From a virus (lineage: Duplodnaviria; Heunggongvirae; Uroviricota; Caudoviricetes), in IMG/VR virus record IMGVR_UViG_2778261358_000013: a stretch of DNA of 12,575 nt, one strand, 5' to 3'. Each line of letters opens with the position of its first letter. Position 1 is the stretch's first letter. Below, piece after piece: positions 191-12,575 of this stretch. The notes beneath the pieces are model-generated. The model was not told where the DNA came from. It searched no databases and was given only the letters and a program-made list of their open reading frames with translations. Made by a program: the position numbers and the translations under genes.

Positions 191-442
191 ATGAGCGAAG
201 TAATCATGATTGTCTCTCCCGGCAAATGGGTATCCGAAGAGCAGTTAATTGCGCTGAAAGGAATAAAAAAAGGTACGTTAAAAAAGGCCCGGGAAAAATC
301 GTTTATGGAAGGAAGGGAATATAAGCATGTCGCTCATGACGGTATGCCATGGGATAACAGTCCATGCTTTTACAACCTGGAAGAAATTGATCGCTGGATT
401 GAGCGCCAGGCATCTGCAAGACCAAGACGTCATCTTGCTTGA
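191..442 (+). CDS. Putative excisionase / small DNA-binding protein (Xis-like)
   Basis: 83-aa ORF immediately upstream of and co-oriented with the integrase (stop 440-442, int ATG at 462 or 477). Small basic protein typical of prophage Xis-like genes. No strong SD before ATG 191; function is by position only. Confidence 0.5.
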   Translation: MSEVIMIVSPGKWVSEEQLIALKGIKKGTLKKAREKSFMEGREYKHVAHDGMPWDNSPCFYNLEEIDRWIERQASARPRRHLA

Positions 443-461
443 CTAAAAGCAACACGAACCA

Positions 462-1757
462 ATGAGAGAAGCTGAAATGAAATATCCGACAGGCGTGGAA
501 AACCATGGAGGGAAATTACGTATCTGGTTTGTTTATAAAGGTGTAAGAGTCCGGGAAAATCTTGGGGTTCCTGACACAGCAAAAAACAGGCGCATTGCAG
601 GTGAGCTACGCGCCTCTGTTTGTTACGCAATAAAAACTGGCGCTTTCGACTATGCAAAACAGTTTCCCGCCTCACACAATCTGGAAAAATTTGGTGAGGC
701 CCGACAAGATTTAACCATAAAAGAACTGGCTGAAAAATTTCTGGCACTGAAAGAAACTGAAGTCGCAAAAACGTCACTCAACACGTACCGTGCCGTCATC
801 AAAAATATTCTGAGCATAATCGGTGAAAAAAATCTTGCATCATCGATTAATAAAGAAAAATTGCTGGCGGTACGTAAAGAGTTACTGACTGGATACCAGA
901 TCCCCAAAAGTAACTATATTGTTACACAACCCGGGAGATCGGCTGTTACCGTAAATAATTACATGACAAATCTTTACGCCGTGTTCCAGTTTGGTGTTGA
1001 TAACGGTTATCTGGCAGACAATCCATTTAAGGGGATCTCACCATTAAAGGAGTCGAGAACCATCCCGGATCCACTTTCGCGGGAGGAGTTTATCCGCCTT
1101 ATTGACGCGTGCAGAAATCAGCAAGCCAAAAATTTATGGTGTGTTTCCGTTTATACTGGGATTCGCCCTGGTGAACTCTGTGCGCTTGGATGGGAAGATA
1201 TAGATCTGAAAAATGGAACAATGATAATCAGAAGAAATCTGGCAAAAGACCGTTTTACAGTACCAAAAACACAGGCGGGAACCAATCGTGTGATTCACCT
1301 TATTAAGCCCGCAATCGACGCTCTCCGGAGTCAGATGGCACTAACGAGACTGAGCAAAGAGCATATCATCGATGTTCACCTCAGAGAATTCGGCAGAACA
1401 GAGAAACAAAAATGTACCTTTGTTTTTCAACCTGAAGTGTCAGCGAAAGTAAAAAATTATGGTGACCATTTTACCGTTGACTCAATAAGGCAGATGTGGG
1501 ACGCAGCGGTAAAGCGTGCCGGAATCCGCCATCGCAAATCGTATCAGTCGAGACACACTTATGCCTGCTGGTCGTTAACAGCAGGAGCTAACCCGGCATT
1601 CATTGCAAACCAGATGGGCCATGCAGATGCGCAAATGGTGTTTCAGGTGTACGGGAAATGGATGTCAGAAAATAATAATGCGCAGGTAACGCTGTTAAAT
1701 ACACAGTTAAGCGAGTTTGCCCCAACCATGCCCCATAACGAAGCGATGAAAAGTTAA
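462..1757 (+). CDS. Phage tyrosine integrase (site-specific recombinase)
   Basis: 431-aa ORF. C-terminal catalytic region has the tyrosine-recombinase signature (..SRHTYACWSL..GAN..IANQMGHADAQMVFQVYGKW.. giving the R, H-x-x-R and Y residues). An alternative start at ATG 477 (MKYPTG...) is possible. Confidence 0.85.
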   Translation: MREAEMKYPTGVENHGGKLRIWFVYKGVRVRENLGVPDTAKNRRIAGELRASVCYAIKTGAFDYAKQFPASHNLEKFGEARQDLTIKELAEKFLALKETEVAKTSLNTYRAVIKNILSIIGEKNLASSINKEKLLAVRKELLTGYQIPKSNYIVTQPGRSAVTVNNYMTNLYAVFQFGVDNGYLADNPFKGISPLKESRTIPDPLSREEFIRLIDACRNQQAKNLWCVSVYTGIRPGELCALGWEDIDLKNGTMIIRRNLAKDRFTVPKTQAGTNRVIHLIKPAIDALRSQMALTRLSKEHIIDVHLREFGRTEKQKCTFVFQPEVSAKVKNYGDHFTVDSIRQMWDAAVKRAGIRHRKSYQSRHTYACWSLTAGANPAFIANQMGHADAQMVFQVYGKWMSENNNAQVTLLNTQLSEFAPTMPHNEAMKS

Positions 1758-2975: not shown

Positions 2976-4189
2976 TTACCAGTTCCACAGCGTGCCATCT
3001 TCCAGACGTGCGACTGGCAGATAAGCAGGTTCATAGGGATATTTCGCCGCCAGCTTTTCATCGAATTCGATGCCAAGACCCGGTTTGTCTCCCGGATGCA
3101 TATAGCCGTTATCGAAAGTCCAGTTGTGCGGGAAGACTTCGAGCATTTGTTCGGAATAACCCATGTACTCCTGGACACCGAAATTGGGGACCCACAGATC
3201 AAAGTGCAGCGCCGCAGCCATGCAGACTGGTGACAAATCGGAAGGACCGTGTGAGCCAGTACGTACCTGATACAGCGAAGCAAAATCGGCAATCCGGCGC
3301 ATACCGGTAATTCCGCCTGCATGGGTCAGCGTGGTGCGGATATAATCGATGAGTTGCTCTTCAATCAGTTGTTTGCAGTCCCAGATGCTGTTGAAGACTT
3401 CACCCACTGCGATGGGTGTGACGGTATGTTGGCGAATGAGACGGAAGCATTCCTGGTTTTCCGCAGGCGTCGGGTCTTCCATCCAGAACATGCGATAATC
3501 TTCAATGCTTTTACCAAAGCGCGCCGCTTCAATAGGCGTTAAGCGATGGTACATGTCATGCAGCAAATGTTCATTAAAACCAAACTTGTTACGTACCGCG
3601 TCAAACAATTTCGGCATGAAATCGAGGTATTTCTCCGTCGACCACAGCTGCTCTTCCGGCCACTGTCCTTTGGTTGCGGGTTCATAAGCCAGACCTTTAC
3701 CTTTCGACATGCCGTAGGTGGTTTTCATACCAGGGATTCCGCACTGCACGCGGATGGCTTTGAATCCCAGCTCCTGATGACGGGCATAATCATCCAGAGC
3801 TTCATCAATACTGTGACCGGTGGTATGGCAATAAACCATCACCCTTCACGAGACGCGCCGCCGAGTAACTGGTAAAGCGGCATGTTGGTAGCTTTGGCTT
3901 TAATATCCCACAGCGCCATATCAACCGCTGAAATGGCCGACATCGTAACCGGACCGCGACGCCAGTAAGCACCTTTATAGAAAAACTGCCAGATATCTTC
4001 GATACGGTGCGCATCGCGACCAATAAGCTGCGGACAAAGGTGATCCTGCAAATAAGAGGCCACGGAAAGCTCACGTCCATTGAGGGTGGCATCCCCAAGG
4101 CCCGTAATACCGTCCTCAGTGGTGATTTTTAATGTGACGAAATTACGCCCCGGACAGGTAACAAAAACTTCAGCCTTTACGATCTTCAT
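2976..4189 (-). pseudogene. rspA: rspA (enolase-superfamily mannonate-dehydratase-like starvation-sensing protein) interrupted by a 1-bp frameshift
   Basis: Two adjacent track ORFs (3839..4222 and 2976..3842) together read as RspA ([42 protein letters not shown]... then ...[27 protein letters not shown]...). The frame breaks at ..LLGGASREG|, where the plus strand has a ccc run at 3847-3849 and an intact gene would need one more C. Real start ATG 4187-4189 with SD AAGGA. Confidence 0.8.
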
Positions 4190-8526: not shown

Positions 8527-8787
8527 TTCAAGGACTTGAAGCGGTTACTCGTTAGAGTCACGAGAGACCTTAGTAGGCCTGAGGTCCTGCATTGAGTCAA
8601 GGACTTTGTGTCATTCTTTGTGCCAGACTTGTGTCATTAGACGGGATTTCTAGACGGCTGGTCAGGACCCCGGTGGCCTCGGTCTGGACTTGAGGCGGGG
8701 CTATGGGGGAAGTCTGCTGGCTTAATGTATTAGATGGTCATTCACATTTTTCTGTCAGAAACCATCGGTCCCACTGTGAGTCCAAAC
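8527..8787 (-). repeat. Non-coding terminal-repeat-like region of the foreign segment, with T7-group-like end motifs on the minus strand
   Basis: No ORF longer than 15 codons on the minus strand. Minus strand carries CTCACAGTG-G-GACC (8767-8780) and TTCCCCCATAG (8701-8711), resembling the first ~35 nt of the T7 terminal repeat (TCTCACAGTGTACGGACCTAAAGTTCCCCCATAGGGGG, from memory). Short direct repeats tcaaggactt (8528, 8596) and gactt(t)gtgtcatt (8600, 8618). Confidence 0.4.
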
Positions 8788-9021: not shown

Positions 9022-9181
9022 AGTTATCATGATGATTGGAACGATTGAACGGTAGGCACTTTACATCTCACCCACTGTTCAGCTTCAGCCAGTGACCAGC
9101 ATAGCCGCTTATAGACTCTGCGTGTCATCCAGATTGTTGCTTGATATCGTCCACCCTCCACAGGCTGTATAGATGTCTTAA

Positions 9182-9421
9182 TCACAGTGACAGGCCACCA
9201 CCTGAAGTCCTGCTGATATTCAGTCCAGACTTACCCCTGCTCATGGTCTTACCTCCCTCGGTCTCATGACCTTGGGTATCGACTACAGCTTGCTGAGCGT
9301 CATCTGGAGGAGCTACAGGAGGAGCTACAGGAGGCGGGACCGAAGCCCCACCTTGAGTCCCACCACCACCTGTCAGGCCCTTGGCGATGGACCTGAAGCC
9401 TTTACTAATGCTCTTACCCAT
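9182..9421 (-). CDS. Hypothetical Gly/Pro/Ala-rich small protein (79 aa), probably disordered
   Basis: ORF begins 5 nt after the stop of the upstream 328-aa gene, with no separate SD (possible translational coupling). Contains GGGGTQGG and PPPVAPPVAPP, the latter encoded by a 12-bp tandem repeat. Low-complexity, so the coding call is tentative. Confidence 0.35.
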   Translation of the reverse strand: MGKSISKGFRSIAKGLTGGGGTQGGASVPPPVAPPVAPPDDAQQAVVDTQGHETEGGKTMSRGKSGLNISRTSGGGLSL

Positions 9422-9426
9422 TGGTC

Positions 9427-10413
9427 TTACGCTTCGGTCTTGGTGAACTTCAGGCGTTTGACTACAGGCAGGACGGCAGTAGCTGAGCCAGTGCCCATCT
9501 TGATGGTCGTAGCAGCTTCAGCGACAACGAACACTTTACCGAGGATTTCCAGAGAGTGAGACTGAGAGTCGCCATCACGTGAAAGGATGACCGTAATATT
9601 CTCGCCATCGTGACGGAAGCAACCGAAGCTAAGAGCCGTAAAACGCTTAGCCATCATGAACACGCCACGGTCTTCACCGTTGTAATACGCAATATCCGTC
9701 CCCAGCATATCGACGATAGCGTCTTCACCACCGAAGCCCTGCTTAGCAGCCAGACGGGAGAGAGCCTTGAGGTGTGACTCATGGGCGATGATACCGTAAT
9801 CAGTAACCTCAGAACCGAAAGAAGATTCGGTGTTGTCATACAGAGCATCCATGATAGCATCTGCCTTAGCGGTCAGGCTGCCAGTCAGGACCGGAAGCTC
9901 TACGGTCTTCAACAGTTTGGAGGACTCCAGAACGTCGACCATGCGAGCGTTGATGGTACGGACCACATTCTCACAGATGTTCATAGCATCCTGCTGAAGT
10001 GTGCCCTGAGTGAATCCGGTGGATGACTTGGCGTCCCAGAGCTTGGTCTGCTCAGAGATGAGAATAGCCCGCTCGATTGGTTCGACCACGATTTCTTGTC
10101 CAGACGGAACGGTCACGACTTCAGGTCGCTTACCACCACGGACAGGAACAACCACAGAGCGGTTAGCCAGAGTGTGAGCAATGATTGGAGTAGGCAGGCT
10201 ATTGCGGGTAGGCAGGACTTCTACAGGGAACGGGATGTTCTCCTGAGCGGATTTCAGAACACCATTCAGCATTGTCTTAACCAGTTTAGCCAGCTCAAAG
10301 GCGTAGACCTGAGGGTCTGCGTTAGTTGGCAATCCTTCGTTAATCTGAATGTTGTCGGTGTCGGTGATACGTACTGGCTCAATGCCGAACTGTAAAGCGT
10401 CTTTAATCGTCAT
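9427..10413 (-). CDS. Hypothetical protein (328 aa), function unknown
   Basis: Long ORF. The track start at 10422 is a TTG; the likely start is ATG 10411-10413 (MTIKDALQFG...) with SD AGGAGA 9 nt upstream. No catalytic or nucleotide-binding motif recognised by eye. Confidence 0.7.
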   Translation of the reverse strand: MTIKDALQFGIEPVRITDTDNIQINEGLPTNADPQVYAFELAKLVKTMLNGVLKSAQENIPFPVEVLPTRNSLPTPIIAHTLANRSVVVPVRGGKRPEVVTVPSGQEIVVEPIERAILISEQTKLWDAKSSTGFTQGTLQQDAMNICENVVRTINARMVDVLESSKLLKTVELPVLTGSLTAKADAIMDALYDNTESSFGSEVTDYGIIAHESHLKALSRLAAKQGFGGEDAIVDMLGTDIAYYNGEDRGVFMMAKRFTALSFGCFRHDGENITVILSRDGDSQSHSLEILGKVFVVAEAATTIKMGTGSATAVLPVVKRLKFTKTEA

Positions 10414-10488
10414 AATAATCAATCTCCTGAATTAGTTTGGATACTGTGGGTCCCGACATCAGGTCAGGACCACTTGTGTGTCTGTGTC

Positions 10489-10980
10489 TTAGAGGCTGTC
10501 CATCCAGTTGTCCGTGGACTCAATGTCAGCGACCATAGAAGCACGGGAGCGCCCAGCGGAATGGGTAGCACTGCGGAGGTGCTCACCATAGGTCCGGCGT
10601 TCAGCTTTGACCTGTTCACGGCGCTGTAGCTCTTTCTGCCACTCTGCATCAGTCATGTTCTCTTCACGCATACGCTCAGCCTGAATGCGCTGCTCTTTAG
10701 CAATACGCTCAGCTTCGGCTCGCTTGTTCTGCTGGCGGCGACCATAGGCGGTCATCAGGTCATTACTGAAGAAGTTACCAATGGTCACGCCAGCTTCAGC
10801 CAGAGCTTCCAGTAACTCCATTGCCTCGCGGCTGGTAGACGGCAGGCCTGACAGGTAGCCCGGAATGAGGGTCTTGATAGCGAGCGACAGCGGATAGGGC
10901 TGACCATCCAGACTCACAGTATTCTCGTAGAGATTGATGTCGGTGACTGACAGTTTCCAGTCTTGGTTATTGAATAACAT
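10489..10980 (-). CDS. Hypothetical protein (163 aa) with charged Arg/Glu/Gln-rich predicted helical segment
   Basis: SD AGGAG 8 nt upstream of ATG 10978-10980. Central segment QQNKRAEAERIAKEQRIQAERMREENMTDAEWQKELQRREQVKAERR is typical of a coiled coil or single alpha-helix domain. Confidence 0.65.
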   Translation of the reverse strand: MLFNNQDWKLSVTDINLYENTVSLDGQPYPLSLAIKTLIPGYLSGLPSTSREAMELLEALAEAGVTIGNFFSNDLMTAYGRRQQNKRAEAERIAKEQRIQAERMREENMTDAEWQKELQRREQVKAERRTYGEHLRSATHSAGRSRASMVADIESTDNWMDSL

Positions 10981-11079: not shown

Positions 11080-11262
11080 TTAGGCAGACAGTTTCATAGA
11101 GACCAGTTGCGCTATTAGCTCGTCTCGTGATTGGTGCTGGCGGGTCTCATCTTCTGGGTCCAGACCTAGCTCCTTCAGGATGACTTCAGTCCGGTAGCCA
11201 CGGTAACGGAGAGTCATGCGACCCTCAGGTGTGCGTGGGTCGATATGTTGTTTAGTTGTCAT
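11080..11262 (-). CDS. Hypothetical small protein (60 aa)
   Basis: ATG 11260-11262 lies 2 nt after the TAA stop of the upstream 84-aa gene, with SD GAGGA 9 nt upstream. Same strand and codon style as its neighbours. Confidence 0.5.
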   Translation of the reverse strand: MTTKQHIDPRTPEGRMTLRYRGYRTEVILKELGLDPEDETRQHQSRDELIAQLVSMKLSA

Positions 11263-11264
11263 TG

Positions 11265-11519
11265 TTAGAAGTCCTCGTTAGACCAATCATCCACGTCAAA
11301 TTCACTGGTGATAGGTGCTTGGAAGTTAGGTAGACCCTCTGGTATCTCTAGAGGCAGTCGCTCGTCGATTCTCAGTGCCATCTCTTCGTATATATGCCGA
11401 AGCAGAGAAGTCAGTAAGATAGGGTCCACAGGATGCTCAGGGCCGTGTCTCTCAATGAAGCACATGGTTGTCGCTATTGACTCCATAATCAGTTCATCAG
11501 TGAGTCGCTTAGAACCCAT
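11265..11519 (-). CDS. Strongly acidic small protein (84 aa) with acidic C-terminal tail ending in Phe (...EFDVDDWSNEDF)
   Basis: The track ORF is 101 aa from ATG 11570, but the likely start is ATG 11517-11519 (MGSKRLTDELIMES...), which overlaps the last codons of the upstream 281-aa gene (sequence ctATGGGTTCTAAgcg; stop at 11509-11511) as in translational coupling. About 18 Asp/Glu against 6 Lys/Arg. Confidence 0.55.
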   Translation of the reverse strand: MGSKRLTDELIMESIATTMCFIERHGPEHPVDPILLTSLLRHIYEEMALRIDERLPLEIPEGLPNFQAPITSEFDVDDWSNEDF

Positions 11520-12354
11520 AGTCGGACCCCTTGCCCGCTGCTGCTTTCTGGGACTTTGTAGCCTTACCATTCAGGTGAGAATCCACCAGACGACGGACAA
11601 CCTTGATATTGGATGTGCGCATGTCATGAGCGATATCCTTCCAGTTATCCTTCAGCCAGTCATAACCCTTGCGTAGAATCTTGATGGTAGGCTCTTTGTC
11701 GTTAGGCTGTGGCTGTAGACGATAGTAGCCGTTGATCTCACCTTTCTTATTGAAGATGGCTCGTGGACGTCCGGTCGATAGGTCTATAGCCGTAATGCCA
11801 AACTCAGTAACACGCTTGGTGTAGAATGGGTTAGGACGACACAGGGTCTTCAGATATCCAGTCAGGACGCTAGCTGTCAGCAGCTTAGAGCTGGTCAACT
11901 TAAGGTCCAGAGCTTTAATAACCTCGGTAGGCGTGGCTCCTGACTTGGAGTCCAGCTTGGAGTCGAGGACGATAGCACCGGGCGCATAGCTGATAGCTTT
12001 AGTCTGTGCAACCTGAAGTTTCTGGGCCTGAAGTTCGAGGACCTCTTGCTCCTTCTGGCGAATATAGGCTAGGACCTTACGACGCACAGCTTTAGACTCA
12101 CGCATCCCGACTAGTAGAAGCTGGTCAGTGTTGAGGGTATAGCTTTTAACGTCCTTCCCGAAGCTTACGAAAATTTCGTAGGTCACATTTTGACCTTCCA
12201 GCTCATCCTCAATACGGGACACAAAGTCGTTATTACGGACAGGCTTCTCCCCCGCTTCTTCACGAGCCGGATTAATAACCTTGGTTAGAAAATCGTGGGA
12301 GGTCATAGACACAAGCTGGTCGAGGTTAATGATGCTAATTTCTTTGGATGACAT
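11509..12354 (-). CDS. Hypothetical protein (281 aa), function unknown
   Basis: Long ORF with SD AAGGAG 9 nt upstream of ATG 12352-12354. Lys/Arg-rich C-terminus. No motif recognised by eye. First gene of the minus-strand run visible in the window. Confidence 0.7.
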   Translation of the reverse strand: MSSKEISIINLDQLVSMTSHDFLTKVINPAREEAGEKPVRNNDFVSRIEDELEGQNVTYEIFVSFGKDVKSYTLNTDQLLLVGMRESKAVRRKVLAYIRQKEQEVLELQAQKLQVAQTKAISYAPGAIVLDSKLDSKSGATPTEVIKALDLKLTSSKLLTASVLTGYLKTLCRPNPFYTKRVTEFGITAIDLSTGRPRAIFNKKGEINGYYRLQPQPNDKEPTIKILRKGYDWLKDNWKDIAHDMRTSNIKVVRRLVDSHLNGKATKSQKAAAGKGSDYGF

Positions 12355-12496
12355 ATCGTTGTACTCCTTTTGTTATGCCTCCTGAAGTCACACCCTGAAA
12401 GCCTACTCAAGCCCCCAACGATAGGGAGACTCACAGGCAACAGGAGACATACAGAAAGACTTGAGGTAATAAGGTCGTGTGAAGACCATAGTTGAT

Positions 12497-12534
12497 AAGT
12501 AAGCGTCAACGGAGCACCGTATTGACGCTTATTT
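12497..12534. promoter_or_regulatory. Strong inverted repeat / stem-loop upstream of the 281-aa gene (candidate processing site, terminator or operator)
   Basis: Perfect 10-bp inverted repeat taagcgtcaa (12500-12509) / ttgacgctta (12522-12531) around a 12-nt centre that itself pairs cgg/ccg. Flanked by aataaataa on one side. Lies ~150 bp upstream of the 281-aa start. Confidence 0.4.
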
Positions 12535-12575
12535 ATTAGTGAGTACTACGTTCCATGGCAGGAGTTCGTCAACTC

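What the first reader, a model, noticed from the sequence alone, without database searches (positions are those of the whole stretch)
11265..11519. 84-aa acidic protein with an SSB/T7-replisome-like C-terminal tail and an overlapping start
The protein is strongly acidic (about 18 D/E against 6 K/R) and ends ...PITSEFDVDDWSNEDF. An acidic tail ending in an aromatic residue is the docking motif of bacterial SSB (DDDIPF) and of the T7 gp2.5 and gp4 tails. Small acidic phage proteins are often DNA mimics (Ocr-type anti-restriction) or decoys for SSB-interacting host proteins. Its ATG overlaps the stop of the upstream gene, implying coupled expression.
Basis: partly seen in the sequence, partly recalled or inferred. 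Interest (0 to 1): 0.6.

Follow-up and report, generated by a model that had tools for sequence, protein, structure and literature searches.

The report
Phage helicase-tail mimic on T7-responsive island
A real 84-residue acidic protein whose flexible end copies the tail that phage T7's helicase-primase uses to hold its DNA polymerase, carried as an optional gene on a small, apparently undescribed capsid-encoding island that carries T7-type phage promoters, so it is probably a decoy for the polymerase of T7-like phages.

Summary
An 84-aa ORF lies on the minus strand at 11265-11519 (18 D/E, 6 K/R, pI 4.3), ends ...DVDDWSNEDF, and overlaps the upstream gene by 11 nt. It is a real gene: dN/dS is 0.2-0.3 against its one diverged homologue. 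The family is tiny. It is not a gp4 fragment.

The tail matches T7 gp4 (...TDWSNDTDF), not SSB or gp2.5. gp4 tails across T7-like phages share a Trp 5-10 residues before a terminal aromatic, and both variants of this protein keep it.

The gene is optional cargo of a ~6.4 kb integrase-bearing island inserted in ynfE. In related copies the island carries T7-type promoters; one is 25/26 identical to an annotated Kayfunavirus promoter. The island also encodes an HK97-fold capsid protein and a gp7.3 homologue. One variant has a gp16 homologue, and another carries the anti-T7 gene PD-T7-4.

Best reading (confidence 0.4): the infecting phage's own RNA polymerase expresses the protein, and the tail docks on the phage DNA polymerase's basic patches as a decoy. 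No binding was tested. The DNA-mimic and SSB-client readings have little support.

The parts
11265..11519 (-). 84-aa acidic protein gene, including its stop codon (the finding)
   Evidence: ORF and composition. Intact homologues of 83-86 aa. dN/dS 0.2-0.3.
11361..11507 (-). Residues 5-53: predicted two-helix hairpin body (helices 5-25 and 32-53)
   Evidence: AlphaFold2 model, mean pLDDT 64, 70-80 in the helices. No similarity to gp4 or gp2.5.
11298..11360 (-). Residues 54-74: proline-rich, predicted unstructured linker (LPLEIPEGLPNFQAPITSEF)
   Evidence: No secondary structure and pLDDT 51-56. Conserved in the diverged homologue P0010.
11268..11297 (-). Residues 75-84: DVDDWSNEDF, a gp4-type acidic tail with Trp at -6 and a terminal Asp-Phe
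   Evidence: T7 gp4 ends ...TDWSNDTDF. PE3-1 gp4 ends ...SWEDTDF. 34 T7-like gp4 tails examined. Shuffle test, 86 in 1e6.
11509..12354 (-). Upstream 281-aa gene: an Ant/Rha/KilA-N-class regulator-like protein, first gene of the island operon; its last 11 nt overlap the 84-aa gene
   Evidence: PHROG anti-repressor families, E 6e-13 to 2e-6. The position is held by KilA-N or Rha variants in other islands.
11080..11262 (-). 60-aa gene, a conserved core gene of the island, function unknown
   Evidence: Present in nearly all island copies examined. No family match.
10489..10980 (-). 163-aa core gene with a charged, coiled-coil-like centre. Scaffold-like by position only (inference).
   Evidence: Conserved next to the capsid gene in nearly all islands examined. 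Only weak PHROG hits.
9427..10422 (-). 331-aa HK97-fold capsid/encapsulin-like shell protein (probable true start is the ATG at 10413)
   Evidence: AlphaFold2 pTM 0.62. Foldseek top hits are all encapsulins or phage major capsid proteins, probability 1.00, E 1e-9 to 2e-11. No sequence-level hits.
9182..9421 (-). 79-aa homologue of T7-group gp7.3 (virion / host-range-adsorption protein)
   Evidence: phrog_1320, E 3e-11. 44% identical to Kayfunavirus PE3-1 gp7.3, E 3e-16. Not gp6.7.
9027..9185 (-). 52-aa gene, last gene of the island in this window
   Evidence: Conserved in several islands. No family match.
8617..8636 (+). att-like 20-bp repeat marking the island's left end inside ynfE
   Evidence: TTTGTGCCAGACTTGTGTCA matches, with 2 mismatches, the direct repeat that flanks the island in L001, L005 and L047.
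12355..12497 (-). Conserved leader upstream of the operon's first gene (predicted long irregular hairpin). The T7-type promoters of related islands lie further upstream, beyond the IS that cuts this copy.
   Evidence: Alignment and consensus fold of 7 islands, with 4 pairs showing compensatory changes. Promoters in L001, L002, L005 and L047.
12498..12575 (.). End of an insertion sequence that interrupts the island in this window
   Evidence: 97-100% identical to transposase or mobile-element regions in phage records.

Best explanation
The gene encodes a small adaptor-like protein: a two-helix body, a flexible proline-rich linker, and a 10-residue acidic tail that copies the C-terminal tail of the T7-family helicase-primase gp4. 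It is optional cargo of a ~6.4 kb integrative island that looks like a miniature satellite of T7-like (Studiervirinae) phages.

Proposed mechanism:
- When such a phage infects, its own RNA polymerase reads the island's T7-type promoters and transcribes the operon: regulator, 84-aa protein, p60, p163, capsid protein, gp7.3-like protein.
- The free tail then docks on the two basic patches of the phage DNA polymerase gp5/thioredoxin, which normally receive the gp4 and gp2.5 tails.
- That competes with polymerase loading, tethering and exchange at phage replication forks. The effect would be to slow helper replication, to the benefit of the island and/or the host.

What is shown: the gene is real and under purifying selection, the tail motif is present, the island anatomy and the promoter-like sites are as described, and the capsid protein has the HK97 fold.

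What is inferred: transcription by the phage RNA polymerase, binding to gp5, and the inhibitory direction of the effect.
For: (1) The tail DVDDWSNEDF shares DWSN and the terminal DF with T7 gp4 (...TDWSNDTDF). It has the same Trp-to-end spacing as Kayfunavirus gp4 (...SWEDTDF).
(2) In 34 T7-like phages most gp4 tails keep a Trp 5-10 residues before a terminal F/Y. gp2.5 tails do not. The only diverged homologue, P0010, changed most tail residues but keeps the Trp and the terminal Phe (...DVWPGGF).
(3) The shuffle test gives 86 in 1e6.
(4) The tail is predicted disordered behind a folded body, as a docking tail should be.
(5) 18 of the last 19 residues are invariant in seven family members, while residues 1-66 vary.
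(6) Published work shows that the gp4 acidic tail binds the front basic patch and the thioredoxin-binding-domain patch of gp5/trx, and that deleting it cuts leading-strand synthesis to about 15% of wild type in minicircle reactions and processivity by about 75% in single-molecule assays (bioRxiv 10.64898/2026.05.20.726333, read).
(7) Both patches (VKWKRRW; HPRTGK..LPK and FKKPKNK) are conserved between T7 and Kayfunavirus gp5 despite 56% overall identity.
(8) The island is tied to T7-like phages several ways. Related copies carry coding-strand promoter-like sites such as CTAAACTATCACTATAGGGAGA. One site is 25/26 identical to the annotated phi6.5 promoter of Kayfunavirus PE3-1. The exact 19-mer occurs 2-3 times per genome in about 20 contigs of 39-40 kb. 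The island has a gp7.3 homologue and, in one variant, a gp16 homologue.
(9) In one island copy the cargo slot holds PD-T7-4, a gene selected experimentally for T7 defence and reported to 'often overlap an integrase gene'.
(10) The gene is accessory. It is absent from most island copies, which fits an interference factor better than a core life-cycle gene.
Against: - The motif match is short: four identical residues plus the terminal DF. The local-alignment score against the T7 tail is only moderately unusual for so acidic a composition (p about 0.01).
- I recalled the gp4 tail first and then checked it, so there is a post-hoc element.
- The exact DWSN core belongs to T7 proper, whereas the best-matched promoters are of Kayfunavirus type. 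The intended target phage is therefore unclear.
- P0010's tail has lost nearly all its acidity, which fits an electrostatic docking tail poorly.
- No binding, expression or phenotype data exist.
- In this window an IS separates the operon from wherever its promoters are, so this copy may be silent.
- Published data suggest that loss of the gp4 tail reduces but does not abolish replication, so a pure competitor might have only a modest effect.
Confidence: 0.4

Rival explanations
1. Recruiter rather than inhibitor. The tail makes the same contact with the phage DNA polymerase, but the helical body binds island DNA or an island protein. The helper polymerase is thereby brought to the island, which encodes no polymerase, primase or helicase of its own, and replicates it.
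For: No replication gene is recognisable anywhere in the 6.4 kb island, so helper replication enzymes must be borrowed if the island replicates at all. The gene is translationally coupled to the DNA-binding-type regulator upstream. Tandem phage promoters 28 bp apart (L001) recall the tandem-promoter primary origin of T7 (own knowledge).
Against: The gene is missing from most island copies, including apparently intact ones such as UMNK88, so it cannot be required for island replication. The upstream partner gene varies among four types. No AT-rich origin-like stretch follows the tandem promoters.
Confidence: 0.15
2. Generic acidic DNA mimic: an anti-restriction or RecBCD-inhibiting protein of the Ocr, ArdA or gp5.9 kind that protects island DNA on entry or during replication.
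For: Net charge about -12 in 84 residues, helical body. Small acidic inhibitors are common in phages and mobile elements (own knowledge).
Against: No similarity to any Pfam, PHROG, PADLOC or PDB family. Six of the 18 acidic residues sit in the last 14 residues, all of them predicted disordered, rather than on a rigid surface. This reading does not explain the conserved Trp and terminal Phe. The homologue P0010 keeps the body but is much less acidic in the tail.
Confidence: 0.1
3. Decoy for host SSB clients: the tail imitates the E. coli SSB C-terminal tip and titrates host proteins such as exonuclease I, RecQ, PriA or the chi subunit.
Against: The tip is E-D-F, not the I-P-F tip of SSB. The Trp is not an SSB feature. 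The local score against the SSB tail is 18, against 34 for T7 gp4. The genomic context points to T7-like phages, not host repair.
Confidence: 0.05
4. Capsid-associated role. The C-terminal peptide on a flexible linker targets the protein to the inside of the island's HK97-fold shell, as encapsulin cargo peptides or scaffold C-termini do, so the protein is packaged or helps assembly.
For: The gene lies two genes upstream of the HK97-fold shell gene in the same operon. The shell's best structural matches are encapsulins. Encapsulin cargo proteins have a folded domain, a flexible linker and a short C-terminal peptide (own knowledge).
Against: Islands with capsid proteins more than 90% identical lack the gene. 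Known targeting peptides are not acidic Trp/Phe tails (own knowledge). This reading does not explain the specific DWSN..DF match to gp4.
Confidence: 0.08
5. The resemblance is a coincidence. The protein has an unrelated role, for example as a partner or modulator of the upstream regulator, or an immunity or antitoxin-like factor, and the tail is simply an acidic disordered end.
For: Only a 4+2 residue match. Acidic disordered tails are common. The family is too small for covariation or wider inference. There are no functional data.
Against: Motif probability of 9e-5 given the composition. The tail is conserved while the body varies. Trp and Phe are retained in the diverged homologue. Independent links tie the island to T7-like phages.
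Confidence: 0.2

Closest known systems
C-terminal tail of T7 gp4 helicase-primase (17 acidic residues ending in Phe)
   Same: Located at the extreme C-terminus and predicted flexible. Acidic. DWSN core and terminal Asp-Phe. Trp at -6, as in Kayfunavirus gp4.
   Different: It is attached to a 55-residue two-helix body, not to a hexameric DnaB-like helicase. There is no homology outside the tail. It is encoded by a chromosomal island, not a phage.
T7 gp2.5 and E. coli SSB acidic C-terminal tails
   Same: The general principle of an acidic disordered tail with a C-terminal aromatic residue that docks on partner proteins. gp2.5 uses the same gp5 patches (own knowledge; for gp4).
   Different: Those tails lack the Trp. 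SSB ends in IPF and gp2.5 in GDF or YDF. Both are attached to OB-fold ssDNA-binding domains, which are absent here.
Satellite-encoded interference factors (PLE, SaPI/PICI and P4 proteins that bind helper proteins)
   Same: A small accessory protein on a helper-dependent element, expected to bind a helper protein and bias the infection (inference from context).
   Different: As far as I know and as far as the paper library shows, no known interference factor works by mimicking a replisome docking tail. The target here would be the helper DNA polymerase.
Capsid-forming PICIs and PICMIs (small phage satellites)
   Same: For the island: integrase, att repeats, small size (about 6.4 kb, like PICMIs), its own HK97-fold capsid gene (like cf-PICIs), and defence cargo.
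   Different: It has no portal, protease, small terminase or head-tail connector genes, which cf-PICIs have. It has a capsid gene, which PICMIs lack. It carries T7-type single-subunit RNA polymerase promoters and gp7.3/gp16 homologues. The presumed helper is a virulent T7-like podovirus.
PD-T7-4 (DUF4145) anti-T7 defence gene
   Same: It occupies the cargo position next to, and overlapping, the integrase in a Rouxiella copy of the same island family. This shows that the family carries anti-T7 cargo.
   Different: It is an unrelated protein in a different slot of the island. The 84-aa protein matches no PADLOC model.

Membership tests
gp4-type polymerase-docking tail (functional motif, T7 family) | Located at the extreme C-terminus and intrinsically flexible | tested here: met
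   Residues 54-84 have no predicted secondary structure, pLDDT about 50-56.
gp4-type polymerase-docking tail (functional motif, T7 family) | Acidic, with a C-terminal aromatic residue preceded by Asp | tested here: met
   The tail DVDDWSNEDF has 5 acidic residues in the last 10 and a terminal D-F. T7 and PE3-1 gp4 both end in D-F.
gp4-type polymerase-docking tail (functional motif, T7 family) | Trp 5-10 residues before the C-terminus, seen in nearly all gp4 tails examined | tested here: met
   Trp is at -6 here and at -5 in P0010. It lies at -5 to -10 in the gp4 tails, and is absent from gp2.5 tails.
gp4-type polymerase-docking tail (functional motif, T7 family) | Binds the front basic patch and the thioredoxin-binding-domain patch of gp5/trx | not testable with these tools
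   This needs binding assays or complex prediction. Only conservation of the patches in T7 and Kayfunavirus gp5 was shown.
T7 gp4 helicase-primase protein family (homology) | Primase and DnaB-like helicase domains, or recognisable descent from them | tested here: not met
   Residues 1-67 show no similarity to T7 or PE3-1 gp4 (best E 6.9). All family members are 83-86 aa. The DNA of the tail shows only what the shared residues require.
Bacterial SSB C-terminal tip | Acidic run ending in the hydrophobic tip I-P-F | tested here: not met
   The protein ends N-E-D-F with no Pro. The score against the SSB tail is 18, against 34 for gp4.
Ocr/ArdA/gp5.9-type DNA mimics | Homology to a known mimic, or a rigid fold displaying a DNA-like array of carboxylates | tested here: inconclusive
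   No homology was found. The low-confidence model has two helices and places a third of the acidic residues in the disordered last 14 residues. Surface charge was not analysed.
Phage satellite (the island) | Integrase with flanking att repeats | tested here: met
   Integrases of 445-542 aa. 20-bp direct repeats flank the island. One repeat is present in the window at 8617-8636.
Phage satellite (the island) | Expression triggered by a helper phage | tested here: inconclusive
   T7-type promoter-like sites lie on the coding strand upstream of the operon in related copies. One is 25/26 identical to an annotated Kayfunavirus promoter. There are no transcription data, and none of these sites lies inside the window.
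Phage satellite (the island) | Packaging into helper-derived particles and transfer | not testable with these tools
   The capsid gene is 81-95% identical across six genera, which argues for recent transfer. No particle or transduction data exist. The stand-alone 6.4 kb contig is explained by att repeats.
Capsid-forming PICI | Own capsid module with portal, protease, head-tail connectors and small terminase | tested here: not met
   Only an HK97-fold shell protein and a possible scaffold are present. There is no room for, and no match to, the other genes in 6.4 kb.
PICMI | Minimal (~6 kb) satellite without capsid or capsid-remodelling genes, found in Vibrionaceae | tested here: not met
   The size is similar, but this island encodes an HK97-fold capsid protein and occurs in Enterobacterales. 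The PICMI definition is taken from the abstract of PMC10803314.

The most novel reading that the evidence does not exclude
The ynfE island is the first recognised satellite family of virulent T7-like coliphages. It detects its helper by carrying the helper RNA polymerase's own promoters, and it builds its own small HK97-fold capsid. Some copies additionally carry this 84-aa protein as a free-standing mimic of the helicase-primase tail that titrates or captures the helper DNA polymerase. That would be a way of attacking or hijacking a replisome that has not been described for any satellite or defence system.
Probability: 0.25. Interest if true: 0.9.

Novelty: new variant of a known kind. Interest (0 to 1): 0.72.

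Why it matters
- **For T7 replication.** T7 is the textbook minimal replisome, and the gp4 and gp2.5 acidic tails are its best-studied protein-protein switches. A natural free-standing copy of the gp4 tail would be a ready-made probe and inhibitor of polymerase loading and exchange. It would also show that mobile elements target this contact.
- **For phage-host conflict.** T7-like phages are strictly virulent, fast, and widely used in therapy and biotechnology, and no satellite of theirs is known in the literature I could search. An island that uses the phage's own RNA polymerase promoters as its alarm, encodes a capsid protein, and carries anti-T7 cargo (PD-T7-4) would explain where some T7 defence genes live and how they spread between Enterobacterales.
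- **For testing.** Everything is directly testable with standard T7 and K1F reagents.

Tried and rejected
- **Family searches on the 84-aa protein.** Pfam, PHROG, PADLOC and PDB-sequence searches found nothing, or only chance-level hits. tblastn of the protein against 50,697 phage records gave no match.
- **Short-tail search.** tblastn with the 23-residue tail gave only noise; the query is too short for BLAST.
- **Homologue searches.** The word-indexed search and the exhaustive HMMER search of 1.84 billion representatives found only the E. coli/Shigella family plus one diverged member. A 990-aa repeat protein at E 3e-4 was judged spurious.
- **Fragment of gp4?** Rejected: no similarity outside the tail, and the length is conserved. 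The tail DNA shows no sign of recent copying from T7.
- **Exact island-type tail in viral contigs.** The back-translated pattern D-W-S-N-[D/E]-D-F-stop gave no match in IMG/VR.
- **T7 promoter inside the window.** Neither the T7 consensus nor the shared promoter core occurs in the window's island part. This copy is cut by an IS before the promoter region.
- **Class B promoter variants.** ATACACCTCACTATAGGGA and TAAGCACTCACTATAGGG have no exact match in IMG/VR, so their cognate phages remain unknown.
- **Stand-alone 6,413-bp island contig (L049) as evidence of an excised circle.** Rejected: it ends at att repeats of 30 nt or more, which is an ordinary assembly break, and it has no terminal overlap.
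- **T7-like origin.** No AT-rich stretch follows the tandem promoters.
- **RNA families.** Rfam finds nothing in the island.
- **Fold search on the 84-aa model.** Not attempted, because a low-confidence two-helix model gives meaningless matches.
- **Mislabel corrected.** I first called the 79-aa protein gp6.7-like. Direct comparison shows it is gp7.3-like.
Full report
**1. The observation**

The ORF exists as described, on the minus strand at 11265-11519. It encodes 84 aa with 7 D + 11 E against 1 K + 5 R, pI 4.3, ending ...PITSEFDVDDWSNEDF. Its ATG lies 11 nt inside the upstream 281-aa gene and is preceded by an AAGGGG ribosome-binding-like box. The next gene (60 aa) starts 2 nt after its stop. 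The genes are therefore packed as in an operon.

A longer 101-aa reading from an upstream ATG is not supported, because homologues begin at the 84-86 aa position.

**2. It is a real gene from a very small family**

- The word-indexed search of 5.8 billion proteins found nine clusters. Six are full length at 81% identity or more, three are truncated or partial, and all named ones are from E. coli or Shigella.
- An exhaustive HMMER search of 1.84 billion representatives added one diverged member, P0010: 86 aa, 67% identical over 73 aligned residues.
- One variant (P0005) is listed in 518 blocks of the assembly collection, so the gene is not rare in E. coli drafts. Only about six of 5,426 complete E. 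coli genomes have it, and RefSeq annotates no feature under the match in any of them.
- Against P0010, dN/dS is 0.21-0.30 with dS near 1.0-1.2, which indicates purifying selection on the protein.
- Among the close relatives, substitutions fall in residues 1-66. 18 of the last 19 residues are invariant.

No Pfam, PHROG, PADLOC or PDB family matches the protein.

**3. Shape**

AlphaFold2 on a shallow alignment gives mean pLDDT 64. It predicts two helices (residues 5-25 and 32-53), followed by about 30 residues with no structure. The architecture is a small helical body, a proline-rich linker (LPLEIPEGLPNFQAPITSEF), and the tail DVDDWSNEDF.

**4. Which tail it resembles**

Translated directly from the T7 record, gp4 ends ...SESTDWSNDTDF and gp2.5 ends ...EEADEDGDF. 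The window protein shares DWSN and the terminal DF with gp4.

I extracted gp4 C-termini from 34 T7-like genomes. The exact TDWSND[T/S]DF is confined to T7 and its closest relatives. Nearly all other tails still have a Trp 5-10 residues before a terminal F or Y. Kayfunavirus PE3-1 gp4 ends ...DSGSWEDTDF, with the Trp at -6 exactly as in the window protein. gp2.5 tails have no such Trp.

The diverged homologue P0010 ends ...SAYDVWPGGF. Most tail residues differ, but the Trp and the terminal Phe remain.

Two controls:
- Shuffling the last 17 residues gives DWSN.{1,4}F at the end in 86 of 10^6 trials.
- The local alignment score against the T7 tail is 34, reached in 245 of 20,000 shuffles. The same tail scores 29 against PE3-1 gp4, 22 and 17 against the two gp2.5 tails, and 18 against SSB.

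The helical body has no similarity to gp4 or gp2.5. At the DNA level the tails share only what the common residues require. The protein is therefore not a gp4 remnant. The tail is a short motif-level match.

**5. The surroundings change the picture**

The window is E. coli chromosome: a lambdoid int/xis, then rspB, rspA, ynfA-D and speG. Next comes ynfE, which is broken near 8600. Everything from an att-like repeat at 8617-8636 to the window's end is a foreign element. An insertion sequence cuts that element at 12498.

In other strains the element is complete. It is about 6.4 kb long and is flanked by 20-bp direct repeats (TTTGTGTCAGCCTTGTGTCA). The gene order is:
- an integrase of 445-542 aa;
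- a variable cargo gene: an HNH endonuclease, a 155-aa protein, or DUF4145;
- a leader region;
- a regulator-like gene of the KilA-N, Rha or Ant class;
- a 55-70-aa gene;
- a 163-aa gene;
- a 326-358-aa gene;
- often a 79-aa and a 52-aa gene.

The TIGER survey lists ynfE among genes interrupted by integrative elements (PMC7192596). I found no further description of the element.

**6. The island is tied to T7-like phages by several independent lines**

(a) *Promoters.* Repeat finding turned up T7-type promoter-like sequences on the coding strand upstream of the operon.
- UMNK88 has CTAAACTATCACTATAGGGAGA and AATAAGCACTCACTATAGGGGAC, 28 bp apart.
- Jnd12 has CCTTAACTATCACTATAGGGAGA and GAATACACCTCACTATAGGGACA.
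- Rouxiella and Citrobacter copies have similar sites.
- From -8 to +6 the first UMNK88 site is identical to the T7 consensus. The sites differ from T7 in the specificity region.
- In L005-type islands, which carry the 86-aa gene, one site is identical at 25 of 26 positions to the annotated phi6.5 promoter of Kayfunavirus PE3-1.
- The exact 19-mer TTAACTATCACTATAGGGA occurs 2-3 times, all on one strand, in about 20 viral contigs of 39-40 kb. The two contigs I checked are Kayfunavirus PE3-1 and the T7-like Pectobacterium phage PP81.

(b) *gp7.3 homologue.* The 79-aa protein is 44% identical to PE3-1 gp7.3, E 3e-16. It is not gp6.7.

(c) *gp16 homologue.* One variant (Jnd12) also has an IS-truncated homologue of the internal virion protein gp16: phrog_342 at E 5e-144, and 40-43% identical to Studiervirinae gp16 over 96% of its length. 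It is unique among complete E. coli genomes.

(d) *Anti-T7 cargo.* In the Rouxiella copy, the cargo gene overlapping the integrase is PD-T7-4 (PADLOC E 2e-96). That gene was recovered in a functional selection for T7 resistance and was reported to 'often overlap an integrase gene' (bioRxiv 10.1101/2022.05.12.491691).

**7. The island encodes a capsid-fold protein**

The 331-aa core protein has no sequence-level matches. Its AlphaFold2 model has pTM 0.62. Foldseek returns only encapsulins and phage major capsid proteins at the top of both the PDB and BFVD searches, with probability 1.00 and E 5e-10 to 2e-11.

The 163-aa protein upstream has a charged, coiled-coil-like centre and may be a scaffold. 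That is inferred from position only.

The capsid gene is 81-95% identical in Shigella (two copies in one genome), Leclercia, Citrobacter, Buttiauxella and Enterobacter, which points to recent horizontal spread.

Taken together, this looks like a miniature satellite, or a phage-triggered island, of T7-like phages. I found no description of such an element in the searchable literature, but that library is incomplete.

**8. Place of the 84-aa gene in the island**

It is optional. p60, p163 and the capsid gene occur together in nearly every island copy I examined. The 84-aa gene is found only in some E. coli ynfE copies, always between the regulator-like gene and p60, and behind four different versions of the regulator.

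That pattern fits an accessory interference or cargo gene, not a core life-cycle gene.

**9. Mechanism proposed**

Published work shows that the gp4 acidic tail contacts the front basic patch and the thioredoxin-binding-domain patch of gp5/thioredoxin. These contacts mediate polymerase loading, tethering and exchange. Deleting the 17-residue tail reduces minicircle synthesis to about 15% of wild type and, in single-molecule assays, processivity by about 75% (bioRxiv 10.64898/2026.05.20.726333).

Both patches are conserved between T7 and Kayfunavirus gp5 although overall identity is only 56%: VKWKRRW, HPRTGK..LPK and FKKPKNK.

I therefore propose that the phage's own RNA polymerase expresses the operon, and that the free tail occupies these patches in competition with gp4 and gp2.5. 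Expression from the promoters, binding, and the direction of the effect are all inferred. Confidence is 0.4.

The main rival uses the same contact to recruit the helper polymerase to the island, which has no replication genes. It is weakened because most islands do without the gene.

The DNA-mimic, SSB-client-decoy and capsid-targeting readings have little specific support. Plain coincidence keeps a real share, about 0.2, because the motif is short.

**10. Caveats**

- The exact DWSN core is T7-type, whereas the best-matched promoters are Kayfunavirus-type.
- The homologue P0010 has a much less acidic tail.
- The window's copy is separated from any promoters by an IS and may not be expressed.
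- All structural models are of modest confidence.

**11. Verdict**

The gene is best seen as a new variant of the acidic docking-tail principle, carried by what appears to be an undescribed T7-responsive, capsid-encoding island. Interest is 0.72.

Noticed in passing
L001 18146-18199 (minus strand); L002 8636-8661, 9301-9351 and 10196-10221; L005 7660-7685; L047 8388-8413 and 8817-8842; L049 2323-2348 and 2962-2987; L050 4371-4429 and 7517-7575: Clusters of T7-type single-subunit RNA polymerase promoter-like sites lie on the coding strand of every island copy examined, in at least two specificity classes. One class matches Kayfunavirus promoters. The others have no exact match in IMG/VR, which may mean the island answers to several T7-like phages.
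   Followed up: partly
window 9427-10422 (minus strand): A 331-aa protein with no sequence homologues outside the island family is predicted to have an HK97 capsid/encapsulin fold. RefSeq annotates it as hypothetical.
   Followed up: yes
window 12355-12470 (minus strand) and the equivalent region of L001, L002, L003, L047, L093 and L098: About 100 nt just upstream of the operon's first gene are highly conserved, whichever regulator gene follows. They fold into a long irregular hairpin with four pairs showing compensatory changes. There is no Rfam match. This could be an RNase III-type processing site or a regulatory RNA.
   Followed up: partly
L048 6815-7474 (Rouxiella sp. S1S-2): The island's cargo gene overlapping the integrase is the known anti-T7 defence gene PD-T7-4 (DUF4145; PADLOC E 2e-96). 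The island family may be the natural vehicle of this defence gene.
   Followed up: partly
L002 2328-4919 (E. coli Jnd12): One island variant carries a diverged homologue of T7 gp16 (internal virion protein with a transglycosylase domain), truncated by an IS21 element. It is unique among 5,426 complete E. coli genomes. This may be a remnant of a larger ancestral element.
   Followed up: partly
L094 6054-6608 (Shigella flexneri SFBU1023); window 11509-12354; L048, ORF ending 59 nt upstream of the p60 match: Other island proteins also end in an aromatic-Asp/Gly-Phe C-terminus. A 184-aa protein with net charge -16 ends GGASYDF, which resembles the Kayfunavirus gp2.5 tail AGDYDF. The window's 281-aa regulator-like protein ends GSDYGF. 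A Rouxiella 207-aa protein ends IYVYDF. This may be coincidence or a recurring docking theme.
   Followed up: no
L094 and L100 (both CP182556.1, Shigella flexneri SFBU1023): The same genome carries two copies of the island's capsid module at different chromosomal positions (95% and 90% identical to the window's), so ynfE is not the only integration site.
   Followed up: no
window 3839-3842: rspA is split into a 127-aa and a 288-aa ORF that overlap by a few bases in different frames. This is a one-base frameshift, either a pseudogene or a sequencing error.
   Followed up: no
window 191-1757: An excisionase-like gene (83 aa) and a 431-aa integrase lie next to rspB. This is the end of a lambdoid (Qin-type) prophage, unrelated to the ynfE island.
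   Followed up: no
window 12498-12575: An insertion-sequence end interrupts the island about 145 nt upstream of the operon's first gene. It separates this copy from the promoter and integrase region seen in complete islands.
   Followed up: partly
P0011 (33 aa): One database entry is an in-frame deletion form of the protein. It keeps only the first 18 residues fused to the last 15 (ITSEFDVDDWSNEDF), that is, almost only the tail.
   Followed up: no
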